IMG/VR virus record: IMGVR_UViG_3300028995_000043
Length of the DNA stretch: 21,569 nt
Direction: 5' to 3' (one strand)
DNA from: a virus
Taxonomy: Duplodnaviria > Heunggongvirae > Uroviricota > Caudoviricetes
Notes under the pieces: generated by a model
What the model was told of the DNA's origin: nothing
Seen by the model: the letters and a program-made list of their open reading frames with translations, nothing else
The model's database searches: none
Part shown: positions 3,979 through 19,698 of the stretch, piece by piece
How positions within the stretch are numbered: position 1 is the first letter of the stretch
Layout: the number at the start of each line of letters is the position of its first letter
Program-made: the position numbers and the translations under genes

Positions 3979-3990
3979 ACGATCAGTAGA

Positions 3991-4020
3991 GGTGAATAGC
4001 GACCCACGACGCTATTCACC
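3991..4020. terminator. Stem-loop between convergent lysC and Mor-like gene (putative bidirectional terminator)
   Basis: Perfect 10-11 bp inverted repeat ggtgaatagc(g) / (c)gctattcacc with an ~8-nt loop, 13 nt after the lysC stop; no clear U-tract on either strand. Confidence 0.4.
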
Positions 4021-4032
4021 ATGCCGGTTCAA

Positions 4033-4380
4033 TTACGAATTACTGCGGCGCTGTTGCTTTTCCGCATGTACGCGTTTCACTATCTTATAAATCCATTGCA
4101 GCGTCAGATTATATTTCTTCGCTAATTCGGCGTAGTTGCGCCCATCGCACTCGCTATAGATTTGGTAGTCACGCTCCGACGCCCGTCCGGAGATCCCTTT
4201 TGGGAAATAAATGCTTTGCCCGCCCCAGTTGCGCATCATTCGGTCGGCAATGGCAAAGCCCACATTTTCCGCCGATGAACTGTCGAGATTGATGCTTTCA
4301 ATCAGAACTTGCGATGCATGAAAAGCCAGGTCGTTAATGATCTCCGGTGTCCGGACCATCTCTTTTGATTTTCGTATCAT
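4033..4380 (-). CDS. Mor/C-family transcriptional activator (phage Mu middle-operon-regulator-like)
   Basis: 115-aa product with motifs GGQSIYFPKG, IYSECDGRNYAELAKKYNLT and YKIVKR that align with the C-terminal dimerisation/HTH region of Mu Mor as recalled; GGAG Shine-Dalgarno 8 nt before the ATG. Confidence 0.8.
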   Translation of the reverse strand: MIRKSKEMVRTPEIINDLAFHASQVLIESINLDSSSAENVGFAIADRMMRNWGGQSIYFPKGISGRASERDYQIYSECDGRNYAELAKKYNLTLQWIYKIVKRVHAEKQQRRSNS

Positions 4381-4545
4381 TTTTCATCTCCATATATCTT
4401 GCATCCTGAATAAGACCCGATGCGTGTAAAACCACGGATATACGCTAAGCAGTTGTCATTACTGCTACTCAATACATTCAACAAACAAATAAACAATCAC
4501 CAGAAATATAAATTCTTAATATTAATGAACGCATAAATTCACTAA

Positions 4546-4579
4546 ATAAATATATTGTTTGCGTTATGTTTCTTGTCAA
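4546..4579 (-). promoter_or_regulatory. Putative sigma70 promoter for the Mor-like gene
   Basis: Perfect -35 TTGACA on the minus strand (plus coordinates 4574-4579), followed by an AT-rich -10-like hexamer (TATATT/AATATA) at a 17-19 bp spacing; ~160 nt upstream of the Mor-like start. Confidence 0.3.
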
Positions 4580-4600
4580 CAGGAGTATCATTTTACACGA

Positions 4601-4620
4601 TACTGTATGCACATACAGTA
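4601..4620. promoter_or_regulatory. LexA binding site (SOS box)
   Basis: tactgtatgcacatacagta matches TACTG(TA)5CAGTA at both CTGT/ACAG half-sites and both flanking TA pairs, with 3 mismatches confined to the central spacer. The box is bracketed by the 8-bp inverted repeat ttttacac (4591-4598) / gtgtaaaa (4636-4643). Confidence 0.8.
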
Positions 4621-4916
4621 TTATTTTTACCTGTAGTGTAAAAAGATCGTTTCCCTCACAGTCGCTGACTTTCTTAAACAAACTTTAAAAATCAAATAAC
4701 TACTGACTATTCCTACGATTCACCATCATCTTTTCCCTGCATAATGACGCGCTTATTCGCGAGGTCACCTTTTGCTCTTTAATTGCTGAGTGGATTTATT
4801 AGCGGGCATGTTCATTTATAGAGAATCTATTTTTTAAAGTTATTTATTAAAGCTTTTTTCATTCTTCACTGGCGGGTTCTGGCGACACTAAACGCTCACT
4901 TATCAGGAGATACCGT

Positions 4917-5204
4917 ATGAAAAAAGTCACTCTTCCCCGGCTTTCCGGTTGGCTGGTCGCTTCCGTCGCGCTGTTTGTCGTGATCGGCTGGACCTCTTCA
5001 GCACAGATCCCGGTCGTCATTTATAAACTAAGCCTGGTTTCGCTTTCCGCGGTGCTGGGATACTGGCTCGATCGCAGTTTGTTCCCATGGGCACGGCCTG
5101 ACTCTTTTAGCCCATGGAAGGAACCGCGTTGCTGCGCGGCGGCAATGATTCGCCGCGCCATCATCGTTGCCGCCGTCTGTCTTTCCGTCGCCTTAGGGCT
5201 ATAG
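4917..5204 (+). CDS. Holin-like small membrane protein (putative)
   Basis: 95-aa product with three hydrophobic helices (SGWLVASVALFVVIGW, IPVVIYKLSLVSLSAVLGYWL, AIIVAAVCLSVALGL); strong AGGAG Shine-Dalgarno; stop overlaps the start of the downstream transglycosylase gene; first gene of the lysis/tail operon. Confidence 0.5.
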   Translation: MKKVTLPRLSGWLVASVALFVVIGWTSSAQIPVVIYKLSLVSLSAVLGYWLDRSLFPWARPDSFSPWKEPRCCAAAMIRRAIIVAAVCLSVALGL

Positions 5205-5206
5205 TG

Positions 5207-5812
5207 ATGTGGCTGAAATATATCGCGTCTATGATTATTTTCGTTCTTTTCCCTCTTAACGCCTCTGAACCGCCGCGAGCCTCTCTGGCATGGCGAAACG
5301 AACTAATTCGTACCGCTCGAGAAGTCTGGGGACTGAACGCCCCAGTGGCCGACTTTGCCGGGCAATTACACCAGGAGTCCGCCTGGCAGCCAATGGTACG
5401 TTCCCCCGTTGGCGCACAAGGCATGGCGCAATTTATGCCTGCCACAGCGACATGGATAAGCCTGTTGTATCCGCAGCTACGTGAAAATAAGCCCTATAAC
5501 CCAACCTGGGCGATTCGCGCACTGGTGCAATATGACCAGCATTTGTGGAAAAACATCTCAGCGAAAAATGATTGTCAGCGTATGGCGTTTACCCTAAGCG
5601 CCTATAACGGCGGTCAGGGATGGGTTAACCGGGATAAAAAACTGGCTGCATCCAAAGGGTTAGATGCCACTAGCTGGTTTGGTCATGTCGAGCGAGTCAA
5701 CGCCGGGCGCAGCGCCACGAACTGGCGAGAAAATCGTCGCTATCCGAAGATGATCCTCTATCAACATGCCGCCCGCTACCTACTCTGGGGGCAGGCAAGC
5801 TGTCTTCATTAA
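5207..5812 (+). CDS. Lytic transglycosylase (SLT domain) endolysin with N-terminal signal/SAR segment
   Basis: Motifs QLHQESAWQP (catalytic E-S), GAQGMAQFMPATA and AYNGGQGW typical of family-1 lytic transglycosylases; hydrophobic N-terminus MWLKYIASMIIFVLFPLNA. Start chosen at ATG 5207 (GTG 5204 also in frame) rather than the ORF-track start at 5114, which overlaps the holin-like gene. Confidence 0.8.
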   Translation: MWLKYIASMIIFVLFPLNASEPPRASLAWRNELIRTAREVWGLNAPVADFAGQLHQESAWQPMVRSPVGAQGMAQFMPATATWISLLYPQLRENKPYNPTWAIRALVQYDQHLWKNISAKNDCQRMAFTLSAYNGGQGWVNRDKKLAASKGLDATSWFGHVERVNAGRSATNWRENRRYPKMILYQHAARYLLWGQASCLH

Positions 5813-5824
5813 TCAGAGGGGCCG

Positions 5825-6139
5825 ATGAAACTCAGTATCGATTTTTGGGAAGTGATCTCCCTTATGCTTTCCTTCGTTGGATTAATGTTTGCTGCCGGAA
5901 AATTGCTGTTAGCGCAAATTGAAAAAAGACTTAATGAGCGTTTTGAATCTCTGGAAAACGCGCGCCGGGAATCAGAAACAAGTTGGTCGAAACTGGAAAG
6001 AGAATTTCTCGAATTTCGTGCCGAGCTTCCGCTGCATTATGTCCGCAGAGAAGATTATCTTCGTGGCCAGGCAGTATTAGAAGCAAAGCTGGATGCCTTA
6101 TATAGCAAAATAGAGCTATTACAACGCGGTAGCTATTAA
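5825..6139 (+). CDS. Spanin-like protein (i-spanin/Rz-like: N-terminal TM plus coiled coil)
   Basis: 104 aa; N-terminal hydrophobic helix (VISLMLSFVGLMFAAG) followed by a charged, heptad-like helical region; GAGGGG Shine-Dalgarno; sits immediately after the endolysin gene. Confidence 0.45.
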   Translation: MKLSIDFWEVISLMLSFVGLMFAAGKLLLAQIEKRLNERFESLENARRESETSWSKLEREFLEFRAELPLHYVRREDYLRGQAVLEAKLDALYSKIELLQRGSY

Positions 6140-6256
6140 ATTCAATTTTTTCTCTAAAGCAGATTAAAAGATTCTCCACCTTCATTACGTCAGAATACAT
6201 TTCAACGATAACGAAGTGAGCGTTAACGAATCAGCGATAATTAAGGAACACCCTAT

Positions 6257-6712
6257 ATGGAAATTTTATCAGTAATGAATTCTGTTGTGACCAGATTACG
6301 TGAACAGAATCCCGAAATGGATGTATCTATTTCATCGGTTGATACCCATAAATATATTCCGCAGACGCAGCAAGTTACAGTGATTATTAATTATAGCGGT
6401 TCTCTATTTGCCATGCCTGAAAGCAGTGATGCTCTCGTGCAACAGCAAACGCTCCGCTTAACCGCCACCGTTATTGTTGGCAAAAATTGTGATGCGTTAA
6501 ACGCACTGGACCGCATACGCAGCGCATTGGGTGGCCTTCAGCTTCCTGATTGCGATCGTCTTCTTTGGCTTGAAAAAGAAATTAATACGGGTGAGAGCGG
6601 CGGTTTCTGCCGCTACATCCTGGAAATGGCGACCAGCTCGCTGTTTATCGCTGAACAGGAAACCACGGATCTTCCCCTACTTACGGAAGTTAATTACGAG
6701 GAAACTGAATGA
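6257..6712 (+). CDS. Hypothetical protein upstream of the sheath gene (possible tail completion/terminator role by position)
   Basis: 151-aa ORF with good AAGGAA Shine-Dalgarno, translationally coupled to the next gene (ATGA overlap); function inferred only from position in a Mu-like tail module. Confidence 0.55.
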   Translation: MEILSVMNSVVTRLREQNPEMDVSISSVDTHKYIPQTQQVTVIINYSGSLFAMPESSDALVQQQTLRLTATVIVGKNCDALNALDRIRSALGGLQLPDCDRLLWLEKEINTGESGGFCRYILEMATSSLFIAEQETTDLPLLTEVNYEETE

Positions 6713-6906
6713 AATACATCTACAACGGCCCGGCAAGCGGCGTCACCCTTGCCGACGGACAAGAAATCTTATTGTGGCCGAACAGTGAAATTGATCTGCC
6801 AGAAGACAACGAGTGGGTCATGACCATGATTGCCCGCAATCACCTGACTTCTGTCATCACTCAGGAAGAACAAAATAACGGAGAGGAAATTGTACATGGC
6901 AGCTAA
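6709..6906 (+). CDS. Small hypothetical protein conserved upstream of the sheath gene (putative)
   Basis: 65-aa ORF whose start overlaps the preceding stop and whose 3' end overlaps the sheath start; acidic C-terminus. Confidence 0.45.
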   Translation: MKYIYNGPASGVTLADGQEILLWPNSEIDLPEDNEWVMTMIARNHLTSVITQEEQNNGEEIVHGS

Positions 6907-8317
6907 TTATCTGCACGGTGTAGAAACCATTGAAATTGAAACCGGCCCGCGTCCCGTTAAAGCGGTAAAATCCGCCGTCATCGCTTTAATCGGTACGGCC
7001 CCCTGTGGTCCGGTAAATAAACCAACATTATGCCTTTCTGAAAGCGATGCTGCGCAGTTTGGCTCAACTCAGGCTAACTTTACGATCCCACAGGCGCTGA
7101 AGGCGATTTATGACCACGGTGCCGGTACGGTGGTGGTAATTAATGTGCTGGATCCGGTAAAACATGGACTGCATGTTGCCAATGAAACCATTACGTTCAA
7201 TAGTGCCGATAAAGCTAAATTAGCTCATCCGGGAGTAAGTTCAGTAATATTAAGACCAGGTACCAGTTCCACTACGTACAAAAATACATCTTACAATGTT
7301 AATGCCGCAGATGGCGTTATAACCCGTACCGGAACTGAAATCCCGGCAGGGGCGAAGGTTTACGCGACGTATACCTATGTTGATCCTACAAAGGTCACCG
7401 CAGCCGATATTATCGGTGCCGTAAATACCGCAGGCGACCGCACAGGGATGAAACTCCTTCAGGACACCTATAACCTGTATGGTTTCTACGCCAAAATCCT
7501 GCTTGCTCCCGTGTTCTGTACGCAAAAATCAGTAACTACCGAGCTGATTGCACAAGCGGAAAAACTCGGTGCGATTACCTACATTGATGCCCCGATTGGG
7601 ACGACATTCCAGCAGGTATTGGCAGGACGCAGTTCGCAAGGCGCTATCAACTTCAATACCAGCTCTGATCGTGCGCGTTTATGTTACCCACACGTCAAAG
7701 TTTACGATGGCATCACTAACCAGGAAGTTCTCGAACCGCTCTCTTCGCGCGCTGCCGGGCTACGTGCCAAAGTAGACCTCGAAAAAGGTTTCTGGTGGAG
7801 CAACTCAAACCAGGAAATTCAGGGTATTACCGGTATTGAACGTTCGCTTTCCGCAATGATTGATGATCCTCAAAGCGAAGTGAATCAGCTCAACGAAAAC
7901 GGCATTACCACTATTTTCAATAGTTACGGCTCTGGTCTGCGCTTGTGGGGCAACCGCACAGCGGCATGGCCTACCGTGACCCATATGCGTAACTTTGAAA
8001 ACGTCCGCCGGACAGGCGATGTAATTAATGAGTCAATCCGTTATTTCAGTCAGCAGTATATTGATATGCCGATTAATCAGGCGCTGATTGATGCCCTGAC
8101 CGAATCAGTAAATACCTGGGGCCGTAAGCTGATTGCCGACGGCGCACTGCTTGGCTTTGAGTGCTGGTACGATCCGGCGCGAAATTCACCGACTGAACTC
8201 AGCGCTGGGCATTTATTGCTTAGCTATAAATTCACCCCGCCGCCGCCGCTGGAACGTCTGACGTTTGAAACTGAAATTACTTCTGAATATTTAGTCTCTC
8301 TGGAGAGCAATAGCTAA
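6896..8317 (+). CDS. Contractile tail sheath protein
   Basis: N-terminus MAANYLHGVETIEIETGPRPV and C-terminus LLLSYKFTPPPPLERLTFETEITSEYL resemble P2 FI / Mu L sheath proteins as recalled. ATG at 6896 preferred over the TTG at 6890 (GGAGAGGA Shine-Dalgarno 6-8 nt upstream). Confidence 0.9.
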   Translation: MAANYLHGVETIEIETGPRPVKAVKSAVIALIGTAPCGPVNKPTLCLSESDAAQFGSTQANFTIPQALKAIYDHGAGTVVVINVLDPVKHGLHVANETITFNSADKAKLAHPGVSSVILRPGTSSTTYKNTSYNVNAADGVITRTGTEIPAGAKVYATYTYVDPTKVTAADIIGAVNTAGDRTGMKLLQDTYNLYGFYAKILLAPVFCTQKSVTTELIAQAEKLGAITYIDAPIGTTFQQVLAGRSSQGAINFNTSSDRARLCYPHVKVYDGITNQEVLEPLSSRAAGLRAKVDLEKGFWWSNSNQEIQGITGIERSLSAMIDDPQSEVNQLNENGITTIFNSYGSGLRLWGNRTAAWPTVTHMRNFENVRRTGDVINESIRYFSQQYIDMPINQALIDALTESVNTWGRKLIADGALLGFECWYDPARNSPTELSAGHLLLSYKFTPPPPLERLTFETEITSEYLVSLESNS

Positions 8318-8841
8318 TGGCTGGAAAAATTCAAATTAACCGTATTACCAACGCAAATATTTATCTCGATGGTAATAACCTTTTAGGTCGTGCAACCGAA
8401 ATTAAATTGCCGGATGTCAGTTTAATTATGCAGGAGCATAAAGCACTGGGCATGGTCGGCAAAATCGAACTCCCGGCAGGGTTCGATAAACTGGAAGGGG
8501 AAATTAAATGGAACTCCTTTTATCAGGACGTCATGCGTAAAACGGCAAACCCGTGGCAGGCGGTAGCATTACAGTGCCGCTCCAGTATTGATTGCTATAA
8601 CTCCCAGGGGAAAGCGAATCAATTAGCGTTAGTCACTCATTTGACTGTCATGTTTAAAAAGAATCCACTGGGAACATTTAAACAAAATGAAAACCCGGAA
8701 TTCAGCAGCGCCTTTGGTTGCACTTATATTAAACAAGTGGTCGATGGTGAAACGCTGCTTGAACTTGATTATATGGCGAATATTTTTCGGGTTAACGGCG
8801 TGGATCAATTAAGTACCTATCGCAATAACATCGGTGGCTAA
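8317..8841 (+). CDS. Tail tube protein
   Basis: 174-aa product immediately after the sheath gene (TAATG overlap); size and position typical of P2 FII / Mu M tube proteins. Confidence 0.8.
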   Translation: MAGKIQINRITNANIYLDGNNLLGRATEIKLPDVSLIMQEHKALGMVGKIELPAGFDKLEGEIKWNSFYQDVMRKTANPWQAVALQCRSSIDCYNSQGKANQLALVTHLTVMFKKNPLGTFKQNENPEFSSAFGCTYIKQVVDGETLLELDYMANIFRVNGVDQLSTYRNNIGG

Positions 8842-8891
8842 GTTATTCGGGGCTACGGCCCCGAACTTCGCAAAATAAATAAGGATACAAA

Positions 8892-9209
8892 ATGAAAGAG
8901 CATTATATCTTACAGTTCCCGTTTACTTCAGCGGCGGGAGACGTAATTAACACTCTGCAATTACGTCGCCTGAAAGTAAAAGATATGCGCAACGCGCGCC
9001 GGATCAGCGAAAAGCCAGAAGAGTGGGATGAACCGCTAATGGCGGCAATGACCGGACTGGTGCCAGAAGATTTAGCTGAAATGGATTTGCTGGATTACCA
9101 GGCATTGCAGAAACGATTTCAATCCATGCTTACCGTGGTTACAGAATCCTCCCCTGCTATGGCAGGCAATGGCGTTACTGGCGAGATGGTTTCGCTTTCC
9201 GCCCAGTGA
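8892..9209 (+). CDS. Tail assembly chaperone (P2 gpE-like position)
   Basis: 105-aa acidic protein between tube and tape-measure genes; AAGGA Shine-Dalgarno; an overlapping out-of-frame extension follows (next feature). Confidence 0.65.
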   Translation: MKEHYILQFPFTSAAGDVINTLQLRRLKVKDMRNARRISEKPEEWDEPLMAAMTGLVPEDLAEMDLLDYQALQKRFQSMLTVVTESSPAMAGNGVTGEMVSLSAQ

Positions 9210-9297
9210 GATAGACGCCCTTACCGTCGATGACTTTAGCAACTGGCTGGATGAAGCCAGCGCTCAAATAAAGATCGAATATGACTCGCAGACCTGA
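9076..9297 (+). other. +1-frame ORF overlapping the 3' end of the chaperone gene: candidate programmed-frameshift extension (E+E'-like)
   Basis: The frame offset +1 from the chaperone is open from 9076 to a TGA at 9295-9297 and encodes ...RFPPSEIDALTVDDFSNWLDEASAQIKIEYDSQT. CUU-U (9195-9198) and GUU-U (9189-9192) are possible slip sites. A hairpin (actcgcaga...tctgcgagt, 9284-9307) follows. Confidence 0.35.
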
Positions 9298-9397
9298 TGT
9301 CTGCGAGTCCTTTAAAGCCCGCCAGGTTTATTTCTTCCCAGCCCATTTTTCAGAAAACTAACCAGCGGGCCATCACCAATCTATAAGAGAAACAATT

Positions 9398-12702: not shown

Positions 12703-12911
12703 TGCGATACCTTGAACATATCACCACCGATGGCGAACGCTGGGATAACCTGGCCTGGCATTACTACGGCGATGCACTGGCTTATGAACGCATTATCGCA
12801 GCCAATCCACATGTCGCCATTTATCCGGTACTGCCTTCCGGTATTCAGCTCATCATTCCGGTCATTTCCGTCAATAAAACCTTATCGGAGATCCCACCAT
12901 GGCTGAGATAA
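12702..12911 (+). CDS. Tail protein X (P2 gpX-like)
   Basis: 69 aa; W..YYG...AANP...LP.G...P pattern matches P2 gpX as recalled. Confidence 0.7.
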   Translation: MRYLEHITTDGERWDNLAWHYYGDALAYERIIAANPHVAIYPVLPSGIQLIIPVISVNKTLSEIPPWLR

Positions 12912-13939
12912 GCGTAACTGGCGGCGTCTTTGCAACACTCACGCCCATTTTTACCCTCTGGTATGGGCATAAAGATATCACTTATGACATCACGCCTTAT
13001 GTCACCAGCATCAGTTACCAGGACAGTATTAAAAACGAGTCGGATACCATCGCGATTACACTGGATGACACCGATGGACGCTGGATAAAAGAGTGGTATC
13101 CCGGCAAAGGCGATACGCTGGCGCTGCATATGGGTTATCAGGGGGAAAAGCTGCTCGATTGTGGTCAGTATATTATTGATAAAATTGATATTTCATCGCC
13201 ACCTTCTACGGTAAATATTGATGGCATCGCCACTTCCGTCAATCAGGCGCTACGCACGCGTAACAGCCAGGGCTTTGAAGAGACGACGCTTTCGGCTATC
13301 GCCAGCCGTATCGCGCAAACGCACGGTCTGAAACTGGTGGGCAAAATCGAGCCGCTCACCATCGACCGGGTAACGCAGTATGGTGAAACCGATGTTGGAT
13401 TTCTCAAACGTCTGGCCAGTGAATATGGTTATGCCGTAAAAGTGACGACAAAAGAGCTGATTTTTTCACATTTACCCACGCTGCGCTGCCTGGCACCGGT
13501 AAAAACGATCGACCGCAAAGACGTTTCGCATTTCACCTTCAAAGATACCATTAACCGTATCTACAAAAACGCCACCGTACAGCATCAAAATAGTAAGAAA
13601 AAAGAACTGGTTATCTACACCCACGACAGCCAGCAAAAACCGTCTGCCCGTGGAGTCGGCACCAGTGCCGACACGCTAAAACTGAACAGTCGGGCGACGG
13701 ACATTGGCGCAGCACAGGCAAAGGCCAACGCTGCACTCGACAGCCACAACGAATATCAGCAAACCGGAACGCTCACAATGATGGGCTGCCCGGAACTGAC
13801 GGCGGGCAATAAAATTGAACTGACCGATTTTGGCGTGCTTTCCGGTCAGTGGCTGATTGATAAATCTACTCACAGTTTTGTGCGCAGCGGCTATACCACT
13901 GAAATCGACGTGTCACGCGGGCCAGCGACCAGCCAGTAA
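12899..13939 (+). CDS. Baseplate hub / late control protein D family (P2 gpD-like, Mu P-like)
   Basis: 346 aa; size, position after gpX and overall similarity to gpD-family proteins; GGAG Shine-Dalgarno; overlaps the gpX 3' end. Confidence 0.8.
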   Translation: MAEISVTGGVFATLTPIFTLWYGHKDITYDITPYVTSISYQDSIKNESDTIAITLDDTDGRWIKEWYPGKGDTLALHMGYQGEKLLDCGQYIIDKIDISSPPSTVNIDGIATSVNQALRTRNSQGFEETTLSAIASRIAQTHGLKLVGKIEPLTIDRVTQYGETDVGFLKRLASEYGYAVKVTTKELIFSHLPTLRCLAPVKTIDRKDVSHFTFKDTINRIYKNATVQHQNSKKKELVIYTHDSQQKPSARGVGTSADTLKLNSRATDIGAAQAKANAALDSHNEYQQTGTLTMMGCPELTAGNKIELTDFGVLSGQWLIDKSTHSFVRSGYTTEIDVSRGPATSQ

Positions 13940-13948
13940 GGAGGAAAT

Positions 13949-14650
13949 ATGAAAGGAGTAACCCGGCAAACGGGGATTATCAGCGATATTGACGAAACCA
14001 GCGTTCGGGTGCGAGTCACGCTTCCAGAGTGTGACAATCTGAAGAGCAACTGGCTTGCGGTACTTCAACGCAATTCCCAGGACAATAAAGACTACTGGCT
14101 ACCGGACATGGGAGAGCAGGTGGAGGTTCTGCTGGATGATAACGGTGAAGATGGCGTGGTGCTGGGCGCAGTATATTCAACGGTAGATACCGCGCCAGTA
14201 GCATCGCGCGACAAACGCTATGTCCAGTTTTCCGATGGCGCAGCGTTTGAATATGACCGCAGCACCCACCAGCTTACGATTAACGGTGGTATCGAAAAAA
14301 TCGTGATTGAGGTTATCGACCGTACCAGCCTGATATCGCCCAACGTTGAGGTTAAAGCCCAACACGTCACCGTGACTTCCGACACTGTTGATGTGAAAGC
14401 CACCGACGTCAGCATTGAAGCCAGTAAGGTCGATGTTAAAGCGATGGCTGTAACGGTAGACGCACCGCTCAGTACCTTTACCGGCAACGTCACGGTGATG
14501 AAAAAACTCACCTGGCTTGGTGGGATGGCAGGAAGTGGAGGCATCGGTAACACCGCCACGATAACCGGCAATGTCAACGTGATCGGCAACGTTCAGGCCA
14601 GCGGCGCATTGCAGGACAGCGGTGGCAACTCCAACCACCATTCACACTGA
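13949..14650 (+). CDS. Baseplate central spike (P2 gpV-like)
   Basis: N-terminal region aligns with P2 gpV (GEQV...DGA..EY...T..LT..G); C-terminal repetitive V/T-rich beta-helix-like segment ending in a His cluster (NHHSH), as at the gpV apex; perfect AAGGAGG Shine-Dalgarno. Confidence 0.85.
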   Translation: MKGVTRQTGIISDIDETSVRVRVTLPECDNLKSNWLAVLQRNSQDNKDYWLPDMGEQVEVLLDDNGEDGVVLGAVYSTVDTAPVASRDKRYVQFSDGAAFEYDRSTHQLTINGGIEKIVIEVIDRTSLISPNVEVKAQHVTVTSDTVDVKATDVSIEASKVDVKAMAVTVDAPLSTFTGNVTVMKKLTWLGGMAGSGGIGNTATITGNVNVIGNVQASGALQDSGGNSNHHSH

Positions 14651-14655
14651 CTTTT

Positions 14656-14686
14656 AACCCGCCTGATAGCGGGTTTTCTCTTTTTA
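14656..14686 (+). terminator. Intrinsic terminator-like hairpin inside the tail operon (between spike and gpW genes)
   Basis: 7-bp GC-rich stem aacccgc/gcgggtt with loop ctgata, followed by ttctcttttt; begins 6 nt after the spike gene stop. Confidence 0.5.
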
Positions 14687-14748
14687 ATCAATCAGTTTTC
14701 TAAATCGCTTTAATATCTCCACAGCCCGTTCAGGGCGAAAATACCCTC

Positions 14749-15108
14749 ATGAACACAAAAACACGCCCCTCAACGCTGCACTGGCAACCGGCCTTGCAGC
14801 GGCCTGAAGAATACGTCTGCGGACTGGATGATATTCACCAGGCAATACACATCATTCTGCGTACACCGCGCGGCAGTGATCCCCACAGACCGCTGTTTGG
14901 CAGCAATTTGTGGCACTACATCGATTATCCCATCGAGCGGGCGATCCCGCATGTGGTACGGGAGTCGGTAGAGGCCATCCGCCAGTGGGAACCGCGCTGC
15001 CGGTTGCTGAAGGTGACACCTGTAATCGACGGTGAACATCTGACGTTACGTGTGCAATGGCGCGCCGCTGACGGCGTAATCAACTCAACGGAGGTGTTAT
15101 GGCGATAG
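14749..15108 (+). CDS. Baseplate wedge protein (P2 gpW / T4 gp25 family)
   Basis: 119 aa; ILRTPRGS...LFGS and WEPR motifs shared with P2 gpW as recalled. Confidence 0.8.
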   Translation: MNTKTRPSTLHWQPALQRPEEYVCGLDDIHQAIHIILRTPRGSDPHRPLFGSNLWHYIDYPIERAIPHVVRESVEAIRQWEPRCRLLKVTPVIDGEHLTLRVQWRAADGVINSTEVLWR

Positions 15109-16214
15109 CCGAACCCAATTTTATTGAACGCGATCCTGCGCAAATTACCAGCGAGATGATTGCGCAATACGAAGATGCCAGCGGCAAAAAGCTCTACCCG
15201 GCACAGGCCGAGCGGTTGCTGATTGACCTTTTTGCCTATCGTGAAAACCTTGTACGCATCGCCATTCAGGAAGCGGCGAAACAGAACCTGGTCGCGTATT
15301 CCCGCGCGCCAATGCTGGATTATTTAGGGGAGCTGGTGGGCGTTCATCGTTTGCCTGCGCAGTCAGCAAAAACGACGTTGCAGTTTTCGGTTGTCAGTGC
15401 GTATACCAGCAATATCCTGATTCCCCAGGGGACGCGGGCCAGTGCCTCTGATAGCGTGATGTTCGCCACCGATGAAGATGTTCTGCTCCCGGCCAGGAGT
15501 TTGCATATCGCCGTTCCTGCCACCAGCCTCGCAGCAGGTGAACAGGGTAACGGCTGGCAGCCTGCACAAATTAGCGCTCTGGTCGACAGGATTGGTCATT
15601 ATGACATCAACGTAATCAACCTGACTGCGTCAACGGGCGGCTGCGGTGAAGAGAGCGATGACGCATTGCGCCAGCGTATCCAACTGGCACCAGAAAGCTT
15701 TAGTAATGCGGGCAGCTATGGTGCCTACCGCTTTCATACGCTTTCCGTAAGCCAGTCGATTATTGACGTTGCAGTACTGGGGCCGGACGAGGGATTGCCA
15801 GAAGGCTGCGTGGAGATCTACCCGCTAACCCTGAACGGACTGCCGGGAATAGAACTGCTCGCGCAAATCGAACAGGAGGTTAGCAAGGAGAAAAAACGTC
15901 CGCTGACCGACAAAGTGAGTGCGAAATGCGCTCTTCGAGTGCCGTATGAGATCCGTGCGCAGCTAACGCTGTTTACCACCGCCGATCAGGAGACAACTCT
16001 GGCTGCGGCGCGTAAAGCGATTAGCCTCTGGACGCAACAGCGGCAGAAACATCTGGGGCAGGACATTGTGCCAAACCAGATAATCAAAGTGTTACAGGTC
16101 GATGGCGTCTATGACGTTGTGCTGAACTTGCCTACAAAACGTATTTTGCAGGCGCATGAATGGGCGGAATGCACTGCAATAGACGTAACGATCGCCGGAG
16201 TTAGCGATGGATAA
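15099..16214 (+). CDS. Baseplate protein J (P2 gpJ-like)
   Basis: 371 aa; position and size typical of baseplate J; overlaps the gpW 3' end and the gpI 5' end (coupled). Confidence 0.8.
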   Translation: MAIAEPNFIERDPAQITSEMIAQYEDASGKKLYPAQAERLLIDLFAYRENLVRIAIQEAAKQNLVAYSRAPMLDYLGELVGVHRLPAQSAKTTLQFSVVSAYTSNILIPQGTRASASDSVMFATDEDVLLPARSLHIAVPATSLAAGEQGNGWQPAQISALVDRIGHYDINVINLTASTGGCGEESDDALRQRIQLAPESFSNAGSYGAYRFHTLSVSQSIIDVAVLGPDEGLPEGCVEIYPLTLNGLPGIELLAQIEQEVSKEKKRPLTDKVSAKCALRVPYEIRAQLTLFTTADQETTLAAARKAISLWTQQRQKHLGQDIVPNQIIKVLQVDGVYDVVLNLPTKRILQAHEWAECTAIDVTIAGVSDG

Positions 16215-16839
16215 ATTGCTGCCACCGCCGCCGCTTGCCAGCGATGAGCGTTTTTCGATTCTGGCAAATATCGCCGCCGAGCGTTTTGCCCAACTCGATC
16301 TTACGGCGTTGATGGTTTATCTGGTCGACCTGGTTGATGCTTCGGCATTACCAGCCCTTGCAGAACAATTTCACGTTCAGGGGCTGGAAGGTTGGTTATT
16401 TACCACCGATGAACGGGAGAAGCGCGAGCTAATTAAGCAAGCCATTGAGCTGCATAAATATAAAGGAACGATTTGGGCGGTACGGCGGGTGCTGGAAATA
16501 CTCTCATTACCAGGAACTATTTCAGAATGGTTTGAATATGGGGGGAAGGCTTATTTTTTTAAGGTTGATATAGAGCTGGTGGATAAAGGCATGGATGAAA
16601 ACCTTTTCAATAATCTGGTAGAACTCATTCATGAATATAAAAACACACGTTCAAAACTGGAAGCATTAATTGTCTGGATCATTAACCAAAGTGCTATTCC
16701 TGTTATTGGTTGTGCACTTTATGGTGGTGAACTGACGTCGGTTTTACCTTTCCAGATACGGGAAGTACAGCAAAACACATCAATCTATTACGGAACAGGG
16801 CAATGGAGCCTTGAAATTACATCTATTTACCCGGAGTAA
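16207..16839 (+). CDS. Tail protein I (P2 gpI-like)
   Basis: 210 aa; HKYKGTIWAVRRVLEIL matches the HxxKGT..A.RRV.E motif of P2 gpI as recalled. Confidence 0.8.
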   Translation: MDKLLPPPPLASDERFSILANIAAERFAQLDLTALMVYLVDLVDASALPALAEQFHVQGLEGWLFTTDEREKRELIKQAIELHKYKGTIWAVRRVLEILSLPGTISEWFEYGGKAYFFKVDIELVDKGMDENLFNNLVELIHEYKNTRSKLEALIVWIINQSAIPVIGCALYGGELTSVLPFQIREVQQNTSIYYGTGQWSLEITSIYPE

Positions 16840-16841
16840 TT

Positions 16842-18611
16842 ATGGATAATGAATTTTATACCCTCCTGACCAATAGAGGGATGGCAAAAATTGCCAGTGC
16901 TCTTGCGGATAAAAAACAACTGCATCTGCAAAAGATGGCCGTTGGAGACGGCGGTGGGCAATATTATGAACCCACGGCGAGTCAAACTAAATTACGCCAT
17001 GAGGTCTGGCGCGGTGATTTAAATACATTAACAGTTGCGCCCAATAATCCTAGCTGGTTAATTGCGGAACTTGTACTGCCCGAAAATATCGGCGGCTGGT
17101 ATATACGTGAAGTCGGCGTTTTTGATACCGATGGTGAACTCATTGCTATCGGTAAATTCCCGGAGTCGTATAAACCGCTATTACCCGGCGGCTGCGGTAA
17201 GCAAGTTTGCATTCGTCTCATTATGGAAGTGTCCAACACGACTGCGGTAACACTCACCGTTGATCCCAGTATTGTGCTGGCAACACGGGATTACGTCGAT
17301 TCGCAACTGGATGAACACGAACATTCGACTAACCACCCTGATGCTACATTGACACAAAAAGGCTTTACGCAGTTGAGTAACGCCACTGACAGTGATGACG
17401 AAACCAAAGCGGCTACGCCAAAAGCGGTGAAAGCGGCACTGATTGAGGCTCGAAATCATCGTCATACCTGGAGTCAGATTACTGATATACCAGATGGCAC
17501 ACTGACGCAAAAAGGGATTGTGAAGCTTAGTAACGCGACCAATAGCAACAGCACGACAGAGGCGGCGACTCCGAGCGCGGTGAAGGCGGCATATGACCTG
17601 GCGAATAGTAAGGCTGCGGGTAGTCATACGCACCCCTGGGGACAGATTACGAGTATTCCTGACGGTACCCTGACACAAAAAGGGATTGTGAAACTTAATA
17701 ACGCGACCAATAGCAACAGTACGACGGAGGCGGCGACACCGAGCGCGGTGAAGGCGGCATATGACCTGGCGAATAGTAAGGCTGCGGGAAACCATACTCA
17801 CCCATGGGGACAGATTACGGGTGTTCCAGACGGCACCCTGTCGCAAAAAGGGATTGTGAAGCTTAATAACGCGACGGATAGCAACAGTACGACGGAGGCG
17901 GCGACACCGAGCGCGGTGAAGGCGGCGTATGATAAAGCCTGTGAGGCATATAGCAGGATTAACAATTCCTCATTCCGATTCTATACATCAAATGGAACAT
18001 TTACCGTGCCAGCTGGAGTGACAGAAATACTTCTGGAAATGTCAGGCGGCGGAGGGGGCGGTGGAGGTGGGGCAGTCGCCGGAAGCTCGACAATGCTGAA
18101 TCCAAAATTTGGACTAGGCGGCGGAGCAGGAAAACCCGGTGAACTGATAATTGCCTCTCTCACAGTTAAACCCGGAGATATGTATTCCTTTACAGTTGGG
18201 TCCGGAGGGGCTGGAGGGGCTGGAGGTACACAGGTGATACCAGAGCGTGGTCCGGGATGGATTCCCGAAGATGCAATGGGGCAAGCAGGTATTCCAGGAG
18301 GAGCATCACATTTTTCTTCACAGAGTGCTTCCGGCGGTGCTGGTGGGGGGGGAGGTAAAATCATAACTATCGACTCCCCGCACGCCAACTCAGTAGGAGA
18401 GGTTCCCAAAACATACTCCAGCAACGGTGAAACTGCAGTAAATACTCCTTATGGAAAAGGGGGCTTGGGAGGAGCGAATAGTGATGGTCAATCCGGCTCT
18501 GGTTATGGGGCGGGAGGTGGGGGAGGGGCTGGTTTAGGATCAACTTGGGTAAACCACGTTGCCCGCAATGGCGGTCGTGGCTTGGGTGGTTATATAAAAA
18601 TTTTATGGTGA
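16842..18611 (+). CDS. Tail fibre protein (P2 gpH-like N-terminus, tandem fibre repeats, glycine-rich C-terminal region)
   Basis: N-terminal ~170 aa align closely with P2 gpH (MAVGDGGG...HEVWR...IAELV.P...GG...RE.G..D..G.LIA...ESYKP...ATRDYVD...EHE.S..HPDA.LT.KGFTQLS.AT.S); four ~56-aa repeats (TQKGIVKL.NATNSNSTTEAATPSAVKAAYDLA); C-terminal ~190 aa extremely Gly-rich. Confidence 0.85.
   Translation: MDNEFYTLLTNRGMAKIASALADKKQLHLQKMAVGDGGGQYYEPTASQTKLRHEVWRGDLNTLTVAPNNPSWLIAELVLPENIGGWYIREVGVFDTDGELIAIGKFPESYKPLLPGGCGKQVCIRLIMEVSNTTAVTLTVDPSIVLATRDYVDSQLDEHEHSTNHPDATLTQKGFTQLSNATDSDDETKAATPKAVKAALIEARNHRHTWSQITDIPDGTLTQKGIVKLSNATNSNSTTEAATPSAVKAAYDLANSKAAGSHTHPWGQITSIPDGTLTQKGIVKLNNATNSNSTTEAATPSAVKAAYDLANSKAAGNHTHPWGQITGVPDGTLSQKGIVKLNNATDSNSTTEAATPSAVKAAYDKACEAYSRINNSSFRFYTSNGTFTVPAGVTEILLEMSGGGGGGGGGAVAGSSTMLNPKFGLGGGAGKPGELIIASLTVKPGDMYSFTVGSGGAGGAGGTQVIPERGPGWIPEDAMGQAGIPGGASHFSSQSASGGAGGGGGKIITIDSPHANSVGEVPKTYSSNGETAVNTPYGKGGLGGANSDGQSGSGYGAGGGGGAGLGSTWVNHVARNGGRGLGGYIKILW
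17337..17935 (+). repeat. Tandem 168-bp coding repeats within the tail fibre gene (4 copies; middle two near-identical)
   Basis: Repeat units start at ~17337 (degenerate), 17490, 17658 and 17826, an exact 168-bp period for the last three; each encodes DGTL(T/S)QKGIVKL(S/N)NAT(N/D)SNSTTEAATPSAVKAAYD..., with HTHPWGQIT in the middle copies. Confidence 0.9.
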
Positions 18612-18615
18612 ACAG

Positions 18616-19221
18616 ATGACACGATATGCGTATTACCATCCGGTAACCTTTGAGGTTATTGACTGGATAGATGCAGCCTCTTTTACTGTGGAATTACCTG
18701 ATTCAGTAATTCCTGTAGATGATGAGCAGTGGCAGTTAAAAGATAAACCATGCTGGATATGTCTTGACCCATTCAAAATTATCACTACGCCACCTCCGGA
18801 TAACTTTTATATCTTAGAGGATGATAAATGGGTGTATAACAAGACGTTATTTACCGTTGCACTGGAGAATACCAAGGCTCAGGTTACACAGGAAATAAAA
18901 AATCGACGTGATGAAATAACAGTAGATTGCATCATCATCAACAACCATCACTTCCACAGTGATACAAATAGCCGTATCCAACAGCTTTCACTCACTAAAA
19001 TGGGAGCGGAGAAAAAAATCCCTCCAGGTTTAATGTGGAAAACTAAAAATAACGGTCTGATCGAGTTAACCAACGAAATCGCCGCCCAGTTTGAATCGGT
19101 CACCATGGATCACGATATGCGCCTGTTCGCCAATGCCCAGCACCATATCGCGGCGGTGGAAGCACTGGACGATATTCAGGCGGTGCTCGACTACGATTAT
19201 TCAACAGGCTGGCAACCATGA
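18616..19221 (+). CDS. Tail fibre assembly protein (Tfa / P2 gpG / Mu U-like)
   Basis: 201-aa ORF immediately after the fibre gene; size and position typical of tail fibre assembly chaperones. Confidence 0.7.
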   Translation: MTRYAYYHPVTFEVIDWIDAASFTVELPDSVIPVDDEQWQLKDKPCWICLDPFKIITTPPPDNFYILEDDKWVYNKTLFTVALENTKAQVTQEIKNRRDEITVDCIIINNHHFHSDTNSRIQQLSLTKMGAEKKIPPGLMWKTKNNGLIELTNEIAAQFESVTMDHDMRLFANAQHHIAAVEALDDIQAVLDYDYSTGWQP

Positions 19222-19673
19222 GTAAAACCACTGTCTGGCTCGCTTGTTATAAGGGCCGAACAGAGCACCGTGGTATTGCCCGACTGGCTGACTGGCTTAC
19301 CCGTAAAATCACACGTGGTCATTATTCCCACTGTGAATTAGCCATTAAGCATGGTGAAAAGAGTTACCTTTGTTACTCCGCATCACTGCGCGATCGCGGT
19401 GTACGCGGAAAAATAATGCCATTGCCAGCGGATAAGTGGGATATGCTGCCGCTCCAGGCCAGCCTTCAGGATGTGGAAACTTTTTTCCGTAAACATGATG
19501 GCAAAAAATATGACTGGCGCGGAGCATTAGGAATTATTACCGGTAATAAAGAACAGCGCGATCGCCTGTTTTGCAGTGAATTTTGTGCTGAATTTCTGCA
19601 ACTGAAGGAAAGCTGGCGCTATTCTCCAAACCACTTGTACGCTTTAGTCAGCAGTTGGCAATACCAGCAATAA
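19218..19673 (+). CDS. Hypothetical protein with permuted-papain-like His/Cys signature (possible NlpC/P60-superfamily thiol enzyme)
   Basis: 151-aa ORF translationally coupled to the Tfa gene (ATGA overlap); contains GHYSHCE early and FCSEFCAEF late, an order reminiscent of LRAT/PPPDE-type permuted papain folds. Family assignment is tentative. Confidence 0.5.
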   Translation: MSKTTVWLACYKGRTEHRGIARLADWLTRKITRGHYSHCELAIKHGEKSYLCYSASLRDRGVRGKIMPLPADKWDMLPLQASLQDVETFFRKHDGKKYDWRGALGIITGNKEQRDRLFCSEFCAEFLQLKESWRYSPNHLYALVSSWQYQQ

Positions 19674-19677
19674 ATCA

Positions 19678-19698
19678 CGCCGGGCTTTATGCCCGGCG
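19678..19698. terminator. Hairpin between convergent tail operon and NTase operon (putative bidirectional terminator)
   Basis: 8-bp GC-rich stem cgccgggc/gcccggcg with loop tttat, overlapping the NTase stop codon; modest U-richness downstream on the minus strand. Confidence 0.4.

What the first reader, a model, noticed from the sequence alone, without database searches (positions are those of the whole stretch)
4033..19673. Complete contractile-tail module with lysis cassette and activator but no head or packaging genes: candidate tailocin next to lysC
The sequence shows lysis genes running directly into a complete tail gene set (sheath, tube, frameshifted chaperone, tape measure, gpU/N-like, gpX, gpD, spike, gpW, gpJ, gpI, fibre, Tfa). 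All ORFs are intact and many are translationally coupled, which argues for selection on a working particle. In Mu-like phages the terminase, portal and capsid genes sit between the lysis and tail genes; here they are absent, as are integrase and replication genes. The order is Mu-like rather than the P2-like order of R-type pyocins. The combination of a Mor-family activator, a LexA box and a lysis cassette matches the general logic of DNA-damage-induced tailocin release.
Basis: partly seen in the sequence, partly recalled or inferred. Interest (0 to 1): 0.85.

Follow-up and report, generated by a model that had tools for sequence, protein, structure and literature searches.

The report
Headless phage-tail weapon beside lysC
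This E. coli island encodes a complete contractile phage tail, a cell-lysis kit and a DNA-damage switch but no phage head, and it has stayed intact at the same chromosomal spot in six bacterial genera, so it is most likely an uncharacterised bacteria-killing particle related to, but separately evolved from, carotovoricin of plant pathogens.

Summary
An island of about 18 kb starts right after the lysC stop codon and carries Mor, holin, endolysin and a full BcepMu-type contractile tail set. It has no terminase, portal, capsid or transposase, and core genes flank it on both sides.

About 200 of 5,426 complete E. coli genomes carry it. The same headless island sits next to lysC in Salmonella (LT2 STM4198-4219), Superficieibacter, Phytobacter and Dryocola. 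Every gene is intact there, with dN/dS 0.02-0.23 at saturated dS, similar to the flanking lysC gene.

A recA-like LexA box is invariant in all six genera and absent from the fetched regions of every phage relative. Family-type activator-dependent late promoter motifs lie upstream of the holin, gp37 and gpW genes. The promoter that normally precedes the head-protease gene is fused to the tail terminator gene gp37.

The same fusion occurs in carotovoricin clusters and in headless Brenneria elements. Bootstrapped trees place these three groups apart, so head loss was most likely independent.

Best reading: an SOS-induced, Mor-activated R-type tailocin. It is a new member of a known kind and is untested experimentally. 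Spanins are missing, and fibre genes are broken in some strains.

The parts
3991..4020 (.). Hairpin between the lysC stop (3978) and the mor stop (4033); likely a bidirectional terminator at the left island border
   Evidence: Read from the sequence. Homology to the K-12 empty site stops at the lysC stop codon.
4033..4380 (-). Mor/C-family late transcription activator
   Evidence: PF08765, E=6e-38. phrog_532, late transcriptional activator. 81-91% aa identity and dN/dS about 0.03 across genera.
4601..4620 (.). LexA (SOS) box TACTGTATGCACATACAGTA
   Evidence: Only exact CTGT-N8-ACAG in the window. Invariant in six genera within a 61%-identity spacer. Absent from the fetched regions of phage, carotovoricin, Lelliottia and Brenneria relatives.
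4592..4619 (+). Sigma70-like promoter TTTACA-16-TACAGT overlapped by the LexA box. A leftward -10, TAAAAT (reverse complement of 4590-4595), is also possible.
   Evidence: Promoter scan. TTTACA is invariant in six genera. Orientation and target gene are inferred, not shown.
4673..4693 (+). Family-type late-promoter motif CTTAAACAAACTTTAAAAATC
   Evidence: Same motif as upstream of the holin gene in phages and carotovoricin clusters. Conserved in E. coli, Salmonella and Phytobacter.
4833..4889 (+). Invariant AT-rich dyad block (4833-4852) plus a -10-like GACACT (4884-4889), upstream of the holin gene; candidate P_lys
   Evidence: Unique in the window, 0 expected by chance. Invariant apart from one G/C position in six genera.
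4917..5204 (+). Holin
   Evidence: PF13272, E=4e-27. phrog_1528, holin.
5207..5812 (+). Lytic transglycosylase endolysin with a hydrophobic N-terminus
   Evidence: PF01464. phrog_669, endolysin. N-terminus MWLKYIASMIIFVLFPLN.
5825..6139 (+). BcepMu gp25-like membrane protein: N-terminal TM helix plus coiled coil, role in lysis unknown
   Evidence: phrog_462. Translation. 82-90% conserved.
6154..6196 (+). P_I-type late promoter (CTAAAGCAGATTAAAAG, then 21 nt, then CAGAAT) fused upstream of gp37
   Evidence: The same motif precedes the protease/scaffold gene in full phages. It precedes gp37 in all headless lineages.
6257..6712 (+). gp37, proposed tail terminator
   Evidence: PF09646. PDB 2GJV, 6 chains, E=3e-56. 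The terminator role is from memory of the literature.
6709..6906 (+). gp38-like small tail protein
   Evidence: phrog_895. Always lies between gp37 and the sheath gene in the family.
6890..8317 (+). Tail sheath
   Evidence: PF04984 and PF17482. Matches R2 pyocin sheath PA0622, E=2e-45. 70-76% identity to Bcepmuvirus and carotovoricin sheaths.
8317..8841 (+). Tail tube
   Evidence: PF04985, E=4e-56.
8892..9297 (+). Tail assembly chaperone E (8892-9209) and overlapping E' ORF (about 9163-9297, +1 frame)
   Evidence: PF10109. The E' peptide is conserved in the +1 frame across the whole family. Its GpE Pfam hit is weak, 17.6 bits, below threshold.
9398..11749 (+). Tape measure protein (783 aa)
   Evidence: PF10145.
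11749..12702 (+). gpU-domain protein with a coiled-coil tail (BcepMu gp45 equivalent)
   Evidence: PF06995. phrog_788.
12702..12911 (+). gpX
   Evidence: PF05489.
12899..13939 (+). gpD baseplate hub
   Evidence: PF05954.
13949..14650 (+). gpV spike
   Evidence: PF04717.
14656..14742 (+). Terminator hairpin (14656-14685), then the late motif CTAAATCGCTTTAATAT (14700-14716) and GAAAAT (14737-14742), upstream of gpW
   Evidence: Terminator scan. The motif is conserved in Salmonella, PhiKM, carotovoricin clusters and BcepMu. Promoter function is inferred.
14749..15108 (+). gpW/gp25 wedge
   Evidence: PF04965.
15099..16214 (+). gpJ baseplate
   Evidence: PF04865, E=1e-61.
16207..16839 (+). gpI baseplate
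   Evidence: PF09684.
16842..18611 (+). Tail fibre. The receptor-binding C-terminus matches nothing among known phages.
   Evidence: PF12571 and PF03406. The last ~190 aa have no match in 50,697 phage records. At least four fibre-module types occur in E. coli.
18616..19221 (+). DUF4376 fibre-associated protein
   Evidence: PF14301. phrog_1807 and phrog_2837, tail.
19218..19673 (+). Conserved 151-aa protein of unknown role (STM4198 equivalent)
   Evidence: 77% identical in Salmonella. No Pfam or NCBIfam hit.
19687..21542 (-). Island cargo, not tail parts: RlaP-family nucleotidyltransferase plus SPFH/slipin protein
   Evidence: PF10127 and PF01145. No PADLOC hit. Present in all E. coli carriers inspected, absent from the Salmonella island.

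Best explanation
The island is a domesticated, headless derivative of a BcepMu-type (Bcepmuvirus) transposable prophage. It makes an R-type tailocin.

Proposed mechanism, all steps inferred:
1. In unstressed cells, host LexA sits on the box at 4601-4620 and keeps the element silent.
2. DNA damage removes LexA, and the Mor-family activator is made.
3. Mor switches on three activator-dependent late promoters. One lies before the lysis genes, one before gp37/sheath/tube/tape measure/hub/spike, and one before the baseplate wedge and fibre genes.
4. Tails of roughly 115-120 nm assemble without heads.
5. Holin and transglycosylase lyse the producer.
6. Released particles bind related bacteria through a strain-variable fibre, contract and kill by puncturing the envelope.

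Shown here: gene content, absence of head genes, conservation and purifying selection, the LexA box, and the promoter motifs and their family-wide positions.

Inferred: which promoter LexA blocks, that Mor acts on these motifs, particle formation, release without spanins, and killing.
For: - The tail set is complete and matches BcepMu gp37-gp52 one for one.
- Head, packaging, transposition and immunity genes are absent. The island is bounded by lysC and yjbD, and K-12 shows the empty site.
- The same headless architecture lies next to lysC in Salmonella, two Superficieibacter species, Phytobacter and Dryocola.
- All about 20 genes there lack stops and have dN/dS of 0.02-0.23. dS is 0.6-3, against 1.2-1.5 for the flanking lysC.
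- The LexA box is invariant in six genera within a 61%-identity spacer. It occurs only in this lineage among the fetched loci.
- The family late-promoter motif sits before the holin and protease genes in full phages. In the window it sits before gp37 and gpW, with the same 21-nt spacing to a -10-like hexamer.
- Sigma70-like promoter matches are depleted inside the cluster: 8 found against 18.3 +/- 4.1 expected.
- The homologous Pectobacterium cluster is the experimentally known tailocin carotovoricin. L035 lies directly after a TolC-family gene, as PMC11974492 describes. PMC10991766 reports the ctv cluster as BcepMu-like.
- The fibre module is polymorphic among E. coli carriers.
- 7 of 11 sampled E. 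coli carriers are fully intact.
Against: - No experimental evidence for particles or killing was found for this locus in E. coli or Salmonella. Ten full-text searches of the held library found nothing.
- The Rz/Rz1 spanin pair, present in the phages and in carotovoricin clusters, is missing, so release is unexplained.
- Only about 4% of complete E. coli genomes carry the island.
- 4 of 11 sampled carriers have a lesion: two broken fibre genes, one stop codon in the DUF4376 gene, and one IS element inside the LexA box.
- The best-conserved promoter at the LexA box points at the holin operon rather than at mor, so the LexA-to-Mor step is not established.
- dS is saturated, so the dN/dS values are approximate.
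Confidence: 0.72

Rival explanations
1. The island is an inert, slowly decaying prophage remnant with no present function. It persists only because deletion is rare.
For: - Most E. coli lack it.
- IS-mediated loss and IS insertions occur.
- Fibre or DUF4376 pseudogenes appear in 3 of 11 sampled carriers.
Against: - About 20 genes are intact in six genera, with dN/dS of 0.02-0.23 at dS of at least 0.6, as high as in the flanking core gene.
- The operator and promoter motifs are invariant inside a poorly conserved spacer.
- All coding lesions seen fall in the fibre module. None falls in the 16 core tail, lysis or regulator genes.
Confidence: 0.08
2. The element is kept mainly as an SOS-triggered self-lysis module, for release of other goods, DNA or vesicles. 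The tail particles are incidental.
For: - The LexA box, holin and endolysin are conserved.
- The LexA-overlapped promoter points at the lysis genes.
Against: - A lysis role does not explain strong purifying selection on 16 tail genes.
- It does not explain retention of separate late promoters for the tail genes.
- It does not explain diversification of the fibre module.
Confidence: 0.07
3. The tail genes are carried along as a vehicle for useful cargo: gtrABC in Salmonella, and the nucleotidyltransferase plus SPFH pair in E. coli.
For: Genus-specific cargo genes sit inside or at the end of the island.
Against: - The cargo differs between genera while the tail genes are the shared, conserved part.
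- Hitch-hiking gives no protection against frameshifts over a dS above 1.
Confidence: 0.05
4. The tails are made to complete tail-less capsids produced by another element, such as a head-only satellite or a co-resident BcepMu-type phage. The module would then be a tail donor for DNA transfer, not a bacteriocin.
For: - The head-proximal proteins gp37 and gp38 are retained.
- gp37 evolves unusually fast relative to its neighbours: 40-79% identity at about 83% sheath identity, against about 68% in full phages.
Against: - Known tailocins are also expected to need a tail terminator (general knowledge of contractile tails, not checked here), so keeping gp37 is not diagnostic.
- The head-tail adaptor genes gp31, gp35 and gp36 are deleted.
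- No partner capsid element was seen near the locus.
Confidence: 0.04

Closest known systems
Carotovoricin Er (Ctv), the R-type tailocin of Pectobacterium
   Same: - It derives from the same Bcepmuvirus-type tail module, in the same gene order: holin, SLT endolysin, gp25-like, gp37, gp38, sheath through gpI and fibre.
- Identities to the window: sheath 75%, tube 76%, gpW 67%, gpJ 56%.
- The head genes are removed, and the protease-gene late promoter is fused to gp37.
- The conserved +1-frame E' ORF is present.
- From memory, it is induced by DNA damage through a Mor-like activator, RdgB.
   Different: - The chromosomal site differs: after a TolC-family gene, not after lysC.
- It keeps Rz/Rz1 and gp26.
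- It has no adjacent mor gene and no LexA box in the fetched region.
- In trees it groups with full enterobacterial prophages and never with the lysC-type: bootstrap 100 against 0.
- From memory, its control uses a cI-like repressor (RdgA), and its fibre is switched by an invertase. Neither is present here.
Burkholderia phage BcepMu and Escherichia phage PhiKM (Bcepmuvirus)
   Same: - Closest complete phages, with sheath identity of 71-75%.
- Tail gene order is identical, from gp37 to gp52.
- The same Mor-family activator, holin and SLT endolysin are present, and the same late-promoter motif.
   Different: The phages also carry a transposase, a MuB-like protein, a repressor, Rz/Rz1, gp26, terminase, portal, protease, capsid and adaptors. 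All of these are missing from the island.
R2 pyocin of Pseudomonas aeruginosa
   Same: It is a headless contractile tail with a lysis cassette, a DNA-damage-induced activator cascade and a fixed chromosomal site. Its sheath is homologous (PA0622, E=2e-45).
   Different: - It has P2-type ancestry and P2 gene order, with the baseplate genes before the sheath gene.
- From memory, it is regulated by PrtR and PrtN rather than LexA and Mor.
- From memory, it has spanins.
Syringacin (Rp4 tailocin of Pseudomonas syringae)
   Same: It is the precedent for independent co-option of a Mu/SfV-like tail into a tailocin, rather than a P2-like tail (PMC4684702).
   Different: Different phage lineage and host. 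No sequence comparison was made here.
Kosakonicin, dickeyocin P2D1 and the proposed ST131 'tailocin' (Enterobacterales)
   Same: These are headless or proposed headless contractile tail clusters in enteric bacteria (PMC6629978, PMC10719855, PMC9205054).
   Different: All three are P2-like in sequence and gene order. None lies at lysC, so they are different loci.

Membership tests
R-type tailocin (contractile phage tail-like bacteriocin) | Complete contractile tail gene set: sheath, tube, terminator, chaperone, tape measure, hub, spike, wedge and fibre | tested here: met
   Pfam, PHROG and PDB matches for every component. One-to-one match with BcepMu gp37-gp52.
R-type tailocin (contractile phage tail-like bacteriocin) | No capsid, packaging, replication or integration genes in or next to the cluster | tested here: met
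   tblastn with BcepMu and PhiKM head and transposition proteins found nothing. Core genes flank the island for 12 kb on each side.
R-type tailocin (contractile phage tail-like bacteriocin) | Kept by selection at a fixed chromosomal site across strains and species | tested here: met
   Same lysC-yjbD site in six genera. dN/dS 0.02-0.23.
R-type tailocin (contractile phage tail-like bacteriocin) | Dedicated lysis cassette for release | tested here: inconclusive
   Holin and SLT endolysin are present. The Rz/Rz1 spanin pair found in the relatives is absent, and only a gp25-like TM plus coiled-coil protein remains.
R-type tailocin (contractile phage tail-like bacteriocin) | Stress (SOS) inducible expression | tested here: inconclusive
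   A conserved canonical LexA box and a Mor-family activator with late-promoter motifs are present. Induction itself cannot be tested here.
R-type tailocin (contractile phage tail-like bacteriocin) | Headless particles are produced and kill related strains | not testable with these tools
   Needs induction, electron microscopy and spot assays. No report was found in the held library.
Carotovoricin (Ctv) lineage | Tail genes of Bcepmuvirus type in Mu-like order, with the head genes removed | tested here: met
Carotovoricin (Ctv) lineage | Common descent with the Pectobacterium clusters (monophyly) | tested here: not met
   NJ bootstrap on sheath, tube, gpD, gpW and gpJ: ctv groups with full enterobacterial prophages at 100%, and lysC-type plus ctv group at 0%.
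Carotovoricin (Ctv) lineage | Locus between tolC and ybiB; Rz/Rz1 and gp26 retained | tested here: not met
   The window island lies between lysC and yjbD and lacks Rz/Rz1 and gp26.
Carotovoricin (Ctv) lineage | Fibre switching by a DNA invertase (feature recalled from memory) | tested here: not met
   No recombinase was found among the ORFs after the fibre gene. They are DUF4376, a 151-aa protein, RlaP and SPFH.
Functional Bcepmuvirus prophage | Transposase/MuB, repressor, terminase, portal and capsid | tested here: not met
   None detected in the window or its flanks.
Extracellular contractile injection system (Afp/PVC type) | Afp/PVC-type sheath and tube set, AAA+ ATPase and toxin cargo genes | tested here: not met
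   Afp3 and Pvc2 sheaths match only weakly (E about 1e-4 to 1e-3), against 2e-45 for the pyocin sheath. No ATPase or toxin domain appears in any island ORF.

The most novel reading that the evidence does not exclude
The headless tails are not (only) a bacteriocin. They would be a shared tail supply that completes tail-less capsids made by other elements. The fast-diversifying terminator gp37 would act as the matching interface, making this conserved island a hidden helper for DNA transfer among Enterobacteriaceae.
Probability: 0.04. Interest if true: 0.85.

Novelty: new member of a known kind. Interest (0 to 1): 0.5.

Why it matters
If particles and killing are confirmed, two of the best-studied bacteria would turn out to carry an unrecognised SOS-controlled tailocin. 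These are S. Typhimurium LT2 (STM4198-4219) and about 4% of E. coli, including reference strain IAI39.

That would add a strain-specific competition factor to gut ecology. It would also give a native enterobacterial chassis for engineered tailocins.

The comparison gives a general rule for how such weapons arise. Three separately placed lineages of one phage family lost their heads in the same way, by joining the head-protease late promoter to the tail terminator gene. One of those lineages swapped phage-repressor control for a host LexA box.

Tried and rejected
- **ST131 'tailocin' (PMC9205054):** a P2-order prophage at another locus.
- **Kosakonicin (PMC6629978):** P2-like, not this island.
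- **Close complete phage by DNA search:** none. Only a Salmonella genome contig and short unannotated 'phage' contigs matched.
- **Head genes just outside the window:** none within 12 kb.
- **Defence-system identity for the two cargo genes and the two post-fibre genes:** no PADLOC hit.
- **NCBIfam naming of the unknown small proteins:** no hit.
- **Canonical -1 frameshift for the chaperone:** rejected. The conserved extension is in the +1 frame, and the slip site was not identified.
- **Receptor inference from the fibre tip:** the tip matches no known phage.
- **Remnants of early genes in the Mor-holin spacer:** none found by blastn or tblastx.
- **Single origin with carotovoricin:** rejected on trees and junctions. 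Recombination after a single origin cannot be excluded.
- **The Yamada 2006 carotovoricin paper:** not held in the library.
- **Expression or SOS data for STM4198-4219:** none found.

Full report
**1. What is in the window**

The window is E. coli chromosome. It is 99.7-100% identical to strains such as A10.

pgi lies at 455-2110 (-). The lysine riboswitch lies at 2341-2537, and lysC at 2629-3978. An island follows.

Comparison with K-12 shows that homology stops at the lysC stop codon and resumes 130 bp upstream of yjbD. The island therefore runs from 3980 to about 440 bp past the window end, roughly 18 kb.

Gene by gene, it contains:
- a Mor-family activator on the minus strand
- a 536-bp spacer
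- holin, an SLT transglycosylase, and a small TM plus coiled-coil protein
- Gp37 and a 65-aa protein
- sheath, tube, assembly chaperone and tape measure
- a gpU-domain protein, gpX, gpD, gpV, gpW, gpJ and gpI
- a tail fibre, a DUF4376 protein and a 151-aa protein
- on the other strand, an RlaP-family nucleotidyltransferase and an SPFH/slipin protein

**2. The head really is missing**

tblastn used terminase, portal, MuF-like, protease, capsid, adaptor, transposase and MuB proteins from BcepMu and from Escherichia phage PhiKM. It finds nothing in the window.

In an identical genome, the 12 kb on each side holds only core genes.

**3. Which phage the tail comes from**

The closest complete phages belong to the genus Bcepmuvirus: BcepMu, phiE255, PhiKM and KP12. 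Their sheaths are 70-75% identical to the window's.

BcepMu has this layout:
- the Mor homologue gp01 at the end of a leftward early operon
- the repressor region
- holin gp21, SLT endolysin gp22, Rz/Rz1 gp23/24, then gp25 and gp26
- terminase, portal, F, G, protease, capsid, gp35 and gp36
- gp37, gp38, sheath gp39 and so on through fibre gp52

The island equals this map minus two blocks. One block is gp02-gp20, the early, transposition and immunity genes. The other is Rz/Rz1 plus gp26-gp36, the head genes. Removing the first block explains why mor sits back to back with the holin gene.

**4. Relatives in other genomes**

A scan of one genome per species with the sheath protein returned 74 loci. 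I classified them by tblastn.
- **Full prophages.** About 37 loci have terminase through capsid lying exactly between gp26 and gp36.
- **lysC-type headless islands.** Salmonella, two Superficieibacter species, Phytobacter and Dryocola have the same island as the window. The order is lysC, Mor, holin, SLT, gp25-like, gp37, gp38, sheath.
- **Salmonella details.** The record's own notes identify the genes as LT2 STM4198-STM4219. There a gtrABC operon is inserted between gpV and gpW.
- **Carotovoricin-type clusters.** Eleven loci from Pectobacterium and Samsonia are headless but keep Rz/Rz1 and gp26.
- **Confirmation of carotovoricin identity.** In P. versatile the cluster starts right after a protease-secretion operon that ends in a TolC-family gene. 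This matches the published location of the carotovoricin cluster between tolC and ybiB (PMC11974492). PMC10991766 states that the ctv cluster is scored as BcepMu-like.
- **Other headless forms.** Lelliottia has the lysC-type junction but an intact transposase, a MuB-like gene and Mor, and is not at lysC. Brenneria and Chromobacterium also have headless forms.

**5. Evidence for selection**

I compared the window with the five other genera.
- Every gene aligns over its full length without stop codons.
- dN/dS is 0.02-0.23.
- dS is 0.6-3, which is saturated. The flanking core gene lysC has dS of 1.2-1.5.

The headless configuration has therefore been preserved over a divergence as deep as that of the host genera. 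An unselected remnant would not survive this.

Within the lysC-type, the tree does not follow genus boundaries, so some exchange between genera is likely. I did not resolve vertical against horizontal history.

In E. coli the island is found in 206 of 5,426 complete genomes, and 172 of these carry at least 80% of it. I inspected eleven carriers:
- Seven have no pseudogene and no IS.
- Two have a broken fibre gene.
- One has a stop codon in the DUF4376 gene.
- IAI39 has an ISL3-family element inserted exactly inside the LexA box.

No lesion was seen in the 16 core tail, lysis or regulator genes. One genome shows IS1-mediated loss of the whole tail cluster.

**6. Regulation**

The Mor-holin spacer is only 61% conserved across the six genera, but it contains two invariant islands.

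*The LexA box.* The first island is CATTTTACAC followed by the LexA box TACTGTAT-N4-ATACAGT, at window 4590-4620. From memory, the box differs from the recA operator only in its central bases.

Among all 90 loci fetched, a canonical box of this type occurs only in the lysC-type islands. It is absent from the fetched regions of the phages, the carotovoricin clusters, Lelliottia and Brenneria. Direct LexA control is therefore an innovation of this lineage.

The box overlaps a rightward promoter, TTTACA-16-TACAGT, which is conserved in all six genera. A leftward -10, TAAAAT, towards mor is also possible. Which promoter matters is unresolved.

*The late promoters.* The second island is an AT-rich dyad block at 4833-4852, 65-84 nt upstream of the holin ATG.

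Looking across the family, I found a shared motif. It is roughly [C/T]TAAA[G/C], then 3-4 nt, then [A/T]TTAAAA, followed after 21 nt by a -10-like hexamer. In full phages it sits upstream of the holin gene and again upstream of the protease/scaffold gene. In BcepMu the two copies are identical.

These positions correspond to the Plys and PI late promoters of Mu, which need the Mor/C-family activator C. That is established Mu biology, quoted from memory.

In the window a canonical copy lies at 6154-6196, directly upstream of gp37. A related conserved copy lies at 14700-14742, upstream of gpW, after a terminator hairpin. Another lies at 4673-4693.

Sigma70-like promoter matches are depleted inside the cluster: 8 found against 18.3 +/- 4.1 expected. 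This fits activator-dependent expression.

**7. How the head was lost**

In every headless lineage the protease-gene promoter has been kept and joined to gp37. This holds for the lysC-type, Lelliottia, the carotovoricin clusters and Brenneria. In Brenneria L010 the complete protease 5' leader is still present.

I ran bootstrapped neighbour-joining on 1,528 aligned residues of sheath, tube, gpD, gpW and gpJ.
- lysC-type plus Lelliottia form one clade (100%).
- Carotovoricin clusters form a clade (100%).
- Carotovoricin clusters group with the full enterobacterial prophages and the Brenneria elements, excluding the lysC clade and outgroups (100%).
- The Brenneria headless elements nest among full Brenneria prophages (100%).
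- lysC-type plus carotovoricin group together in 0% of replicates.

The junctions also differ, since the carotovoricin clusters keep Rz/Rz1 and gp26. The simplest reading is at least three independent head losses by the same route. A single loss followed by recombination with phages cannot be ruled out with these methods.

**8.

- **Chaperone extension.** It is a conserved ORF (LLARWFRFxPSEID...) in the +1 frame in essentially every family member. Its match to the P2 GpE model is weak (17.6 bits). The slip site is not identified, though a CCCC run at 9151-9154 is a candidate.
- **gp37.** It matches the crystal structure 2GJV, which has six chains. From memory, this fold is regarded as a tail terminator. 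gp37 is the fastest-evolving non-fibre gene in the lysC-type.
- **'Tfa'.** This is not confirmed. The two genes after the fibre are DUF4376 and an unknown 151-aa protein.
- **Fibre tip.** The last ~190 residues have no match in 50,697 phage records.
- **Spanins.** None are present.

**9. Comparison with what is known, and novelty**

In function the island looks like an R-type tailocin. By ancestry it is a sister domestication to carotovoricin from the same phage genus, but it fails the membership tests for the Ctv lineage: monophyly, locus, and retained Rz/Rz1 and gp26.

It differs from R-pyocins, kosakonicin, dickeyocin and the proposed ST131 tailocin. All of those are P2-like.

Ten full-text searches found no paper that treats the lysC island of E. 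coli or Salmonella as a tailocin, or that reports its induction. The library lacks most subscription journals, so this is absence of evidence only.

I rate it a new member of a known kind, of moderate interest. The particle itself is expected biology. Three points are worth an experiment:
- its presence and deep conservation in model enterics
- the capture of host LexA control
- the repeated promoter-to-terminator fusion

Noticed in passing
L080 (E. coli IAI39) 3569-5500; equivalent to window 4601-4620: An ISL3-family ISEc53 element carrying a ClbS/DfsB-family gene is inserted exactly inside the island's LexA box, with the 8-bp duplication ATGTACAT. It splits the operator and the overlapping promoter. 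Several other carriers list the same IS.
   Followed up: partly
window 19687-21542 (-): An RlaP-family nucleotidyltransferase and an SPFH/slipin protein form a conserved cargo pair at the right end of the E. coli island. They match no PADLOC defence model and are absent from the Salmonella island. In strain MSB1_4I they are pseudogenes, and IS1 has removed all tail genes.
   Followed up: partly
L002 (Salmonella Infantis) 20011-22846: The O-antigen glucosylation operon gtrABC (STM4204-4206) is inserted between the gpV terminator and the conserved motif upstream of gpW. A surface-modifying operon sits inside a cluster whose product probably targets surface polysaccharide.
   Followed up: no
window 6257-6712: gp37 (a homologue of PDB 2GJV) is only 40-79% identical among lysC-type islands whose sheaths are about 83% identical. 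In full phages at the same sheath identity it is about 68% identical, on a par with its neighbours gp38 (63%) and gpJ (71%). The reason for this faster change is unknown.
   Followed up: partly
window 5812-6256: The lysC-type islands lack the Rz/Rz1 spanin pair and gp26, which the phages and carotovoricin clusters keep. Only a 104-aa protein with an N-terminal TM helix and a coiled coil remains.
   Followed up: partly
L007 (Lelliottia wanjuensis) 2476-9829: This headless relative is sister to the lysC-type. It still has an intact transposase, a MuB-like gene, Mor and a repressor region, and it is not next to lysC. It may be a headless element that is still mobile, or an intermediate stage.
   Followed up: partly
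L053, L057, L059 (Chromobacterium): In these clusters Mor lies directly upstream of a divergent gp37-like ORF, gp38 and the sheath gene, with no lysis genes between. This looks like another headless derivative of the same phage family.
   Followed up: no
window 8892-9297: The chaperone extension ORF lies in the +1 (or -2) frame relative to the chaperone in essentially all of about 60 family members. This differs from the -1 shift that I recall for P2 E/E'.
   Followed up: partly
GenBank OR851066, OR850896, OR850955 (Salmonella phage S.Kent 1-2-1) and OR845313, OR845696 (Escherichia phage ECO95 1-6-1): These short, unannotated 'phage' records are fragments of this kind of island, at 75-87% nt identity. 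The ECO95 contigs are too divergent to come from the E. coli versions seen here.
   Followed up: no
window 184-333 and 2341-2537: Rfam finds the enterobacterial sRNA STnc430 upstream of pgi and the lysine riboswitch in front of lysC. Both belong to the core flank, not to the island.
   Followed up: no
window 6000-21569: Sigma70-like promoter matches are fewer than expected inside the tail cluster: 8 found against 18.3 +/- 4.1 in shuffles.
   Followed up: no
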